A DNA stretch of 63,642 bases. Source: an uncultured Candidatus Saccharibacteria bacterium. Lineage in GTDB: Bacteria; Patescibacteriota; UBA1384; JAMDBS01; DAOVQR01. The DNA is not shown here. The text below is the continuation of a report on this DNA, generated by a model with database tools. The stretch is from contig CAYZSW010000006.1 of NCBI GenBank assembly GCA_964481135.1, positions 1 to 63,642 of the forward strand, read 5' to 3'.

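What the first reader, a model, noticed from the sequence alone, without database searches (positions are those of the whole stretch)
11857..12045. A complete tRNA-Thr(CGU) nested inside the D-arm of a second tRNA-Thr(CGU)-like gene, clamped by GC-rich complementary arms
On the minus strand, 12045->12023 reads GCCCACT-TA-GCTT-TAATGGTA-GA, and 11909->11857 reads GC-A-ATTCC-TTCGTAA-GGAAG-AGGTT-ATTGG-TTCAAAT-CCAAT-AGTGGGC-T-CCA. Joined, these make a 76-nt cloverleaf with a perfect 7-bp acceptor stem, a restored D stem (GCTT/GAGC), a canonical T loop and anticodon CGT. The 113 nt between the two pieces have three parts. The first is a 21-nt arm, CCTGCCCGCCAGTCGCTTAGC. The second is an intact 75-nt tRNA-Thr(CGU) (11927..12001). 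The third is a 17-nt arm, GGCGCTTGGCAGACGGG. The arms can pair (CTGCC/GGCAG, CCAG/TTGG, CGC/GCG), so the inner tRNA sits in the loop of a GC-rich hairpin planted in the outer D stem. The inner and outer genes share only about two thirds of their positions, so this is not a simple recent duplication. I see three readings. (a) It is an intron-like or split-tRNA arrangement. RNase P/Z release of the inner tRNA would leave two outer halves held together by the GC clamp, which recalls archaeal split tRNAs but is not something I know from bacteria. (b) A palindromic element carrying a replacement tRNA-Thr inserted into and killed the resident gene. T instead of the near-invariant A at outer position 14 argues for decay. 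(c) It is an assembly chimera. The arm sequence resembles the CCTGTCYGCC / GGCRGACRGG core of the GC islands at 33.2 and 56.9 kb and the junction of the tRNA-Asp repeats.
Basis: partly seen in the sequence, partly recalled or inferred. Interest (0 to 1): 0.9.

Follow-up and report, generated by a model that had tools for sequence, protein, structure and literature searches.

The report, continued
The most novel reading that the evidence does not exclude
The outer gene is still expressed as a working molecule. Processing of the inner tRNA by RNase P and RNase Z would cut the 189-nt precursor into two outer pieces. These stay paired through the GC arms and the 7-bp acceptor stem, and are then charged as a two-piece tRNA or ligated. 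That would make it the first split or 'tRNA-as-intron' tRNA in Bacteria.

A less exotic but still new reading lies within my best explanation: the arm-tRNA-arm unit is a self-compensating mobile element that homes specifically into tRNA-Thr(CGU) genes across Patescibacteria.
Probability: 0.05. Interest if true: 0.95.

Novelty: new variant of a known kind. Interest (0 to 1): 0.62.

Why it matters
Mobile DNA commonly targets tRNA genes, but it normally restores only the displaced end of the gene. Here a 113-bp, ORF-less palindromic element carries a complete substitute tRNA of the same anticodon into the gene it destroys. The same element family marks relics of earlier tRNA-Thr alleles in other Patescibacteria.

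This points to a "disrupt-and-replace" mode of tRNA gene turnover. It would explain why tRNA-Thr(CGU) alleles at a conserved locus do not follow the host phylogeny. It would also extend the known habit of CPR bacteria of tolerating insertions in rRNA genes to tRNA genes.

There is a practical consequence. Standard tRNA finders report only the inner gene, so such nests and relics are invisible in current annotations.

If the outer gene turned out to be functional, it would be the first bacterial split tRNA.

Tried and rejected
- BHB splice motif: tested in four registers, absent.
- Group I/II intron or any Rfam family for the insert, the arms, and islands C and D: nothing beyond the two tRNA hits.
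- ARAGORN with introns allowed on the native locus finds only the inner tRNA. On the locus with the inner tRNA deleted it gives a spurious tRNA-Ala with an intron.
- Assembly artefact: rejected.
- T14 as a sign of decay: rejected, because the intact L092 orthologue has it.
- Kinship of the arms with the tRNA-Asp tandem units: not supported.
- GIY-YIG gene in the window: none.
- Two scans of viral contigs for the arm/tRNA junctions: one chance hit in a coding region (L114) and no hits.
- BLAST of the 189 nt against phage genomes: only generic similarity of about 80% to phage tRNA-Thr genes.
- Extra look-ups of GT2 homologues (L094-L096, L115-L117): truncated contigs or plain single tRNA-Thr genes, and no further nest.
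- A covariance model of the hairpin family was not built, because the four available copies align poorly.
- Literature searches for nested or split tRNA genes in bacteria or CPR returned nothing relevant.
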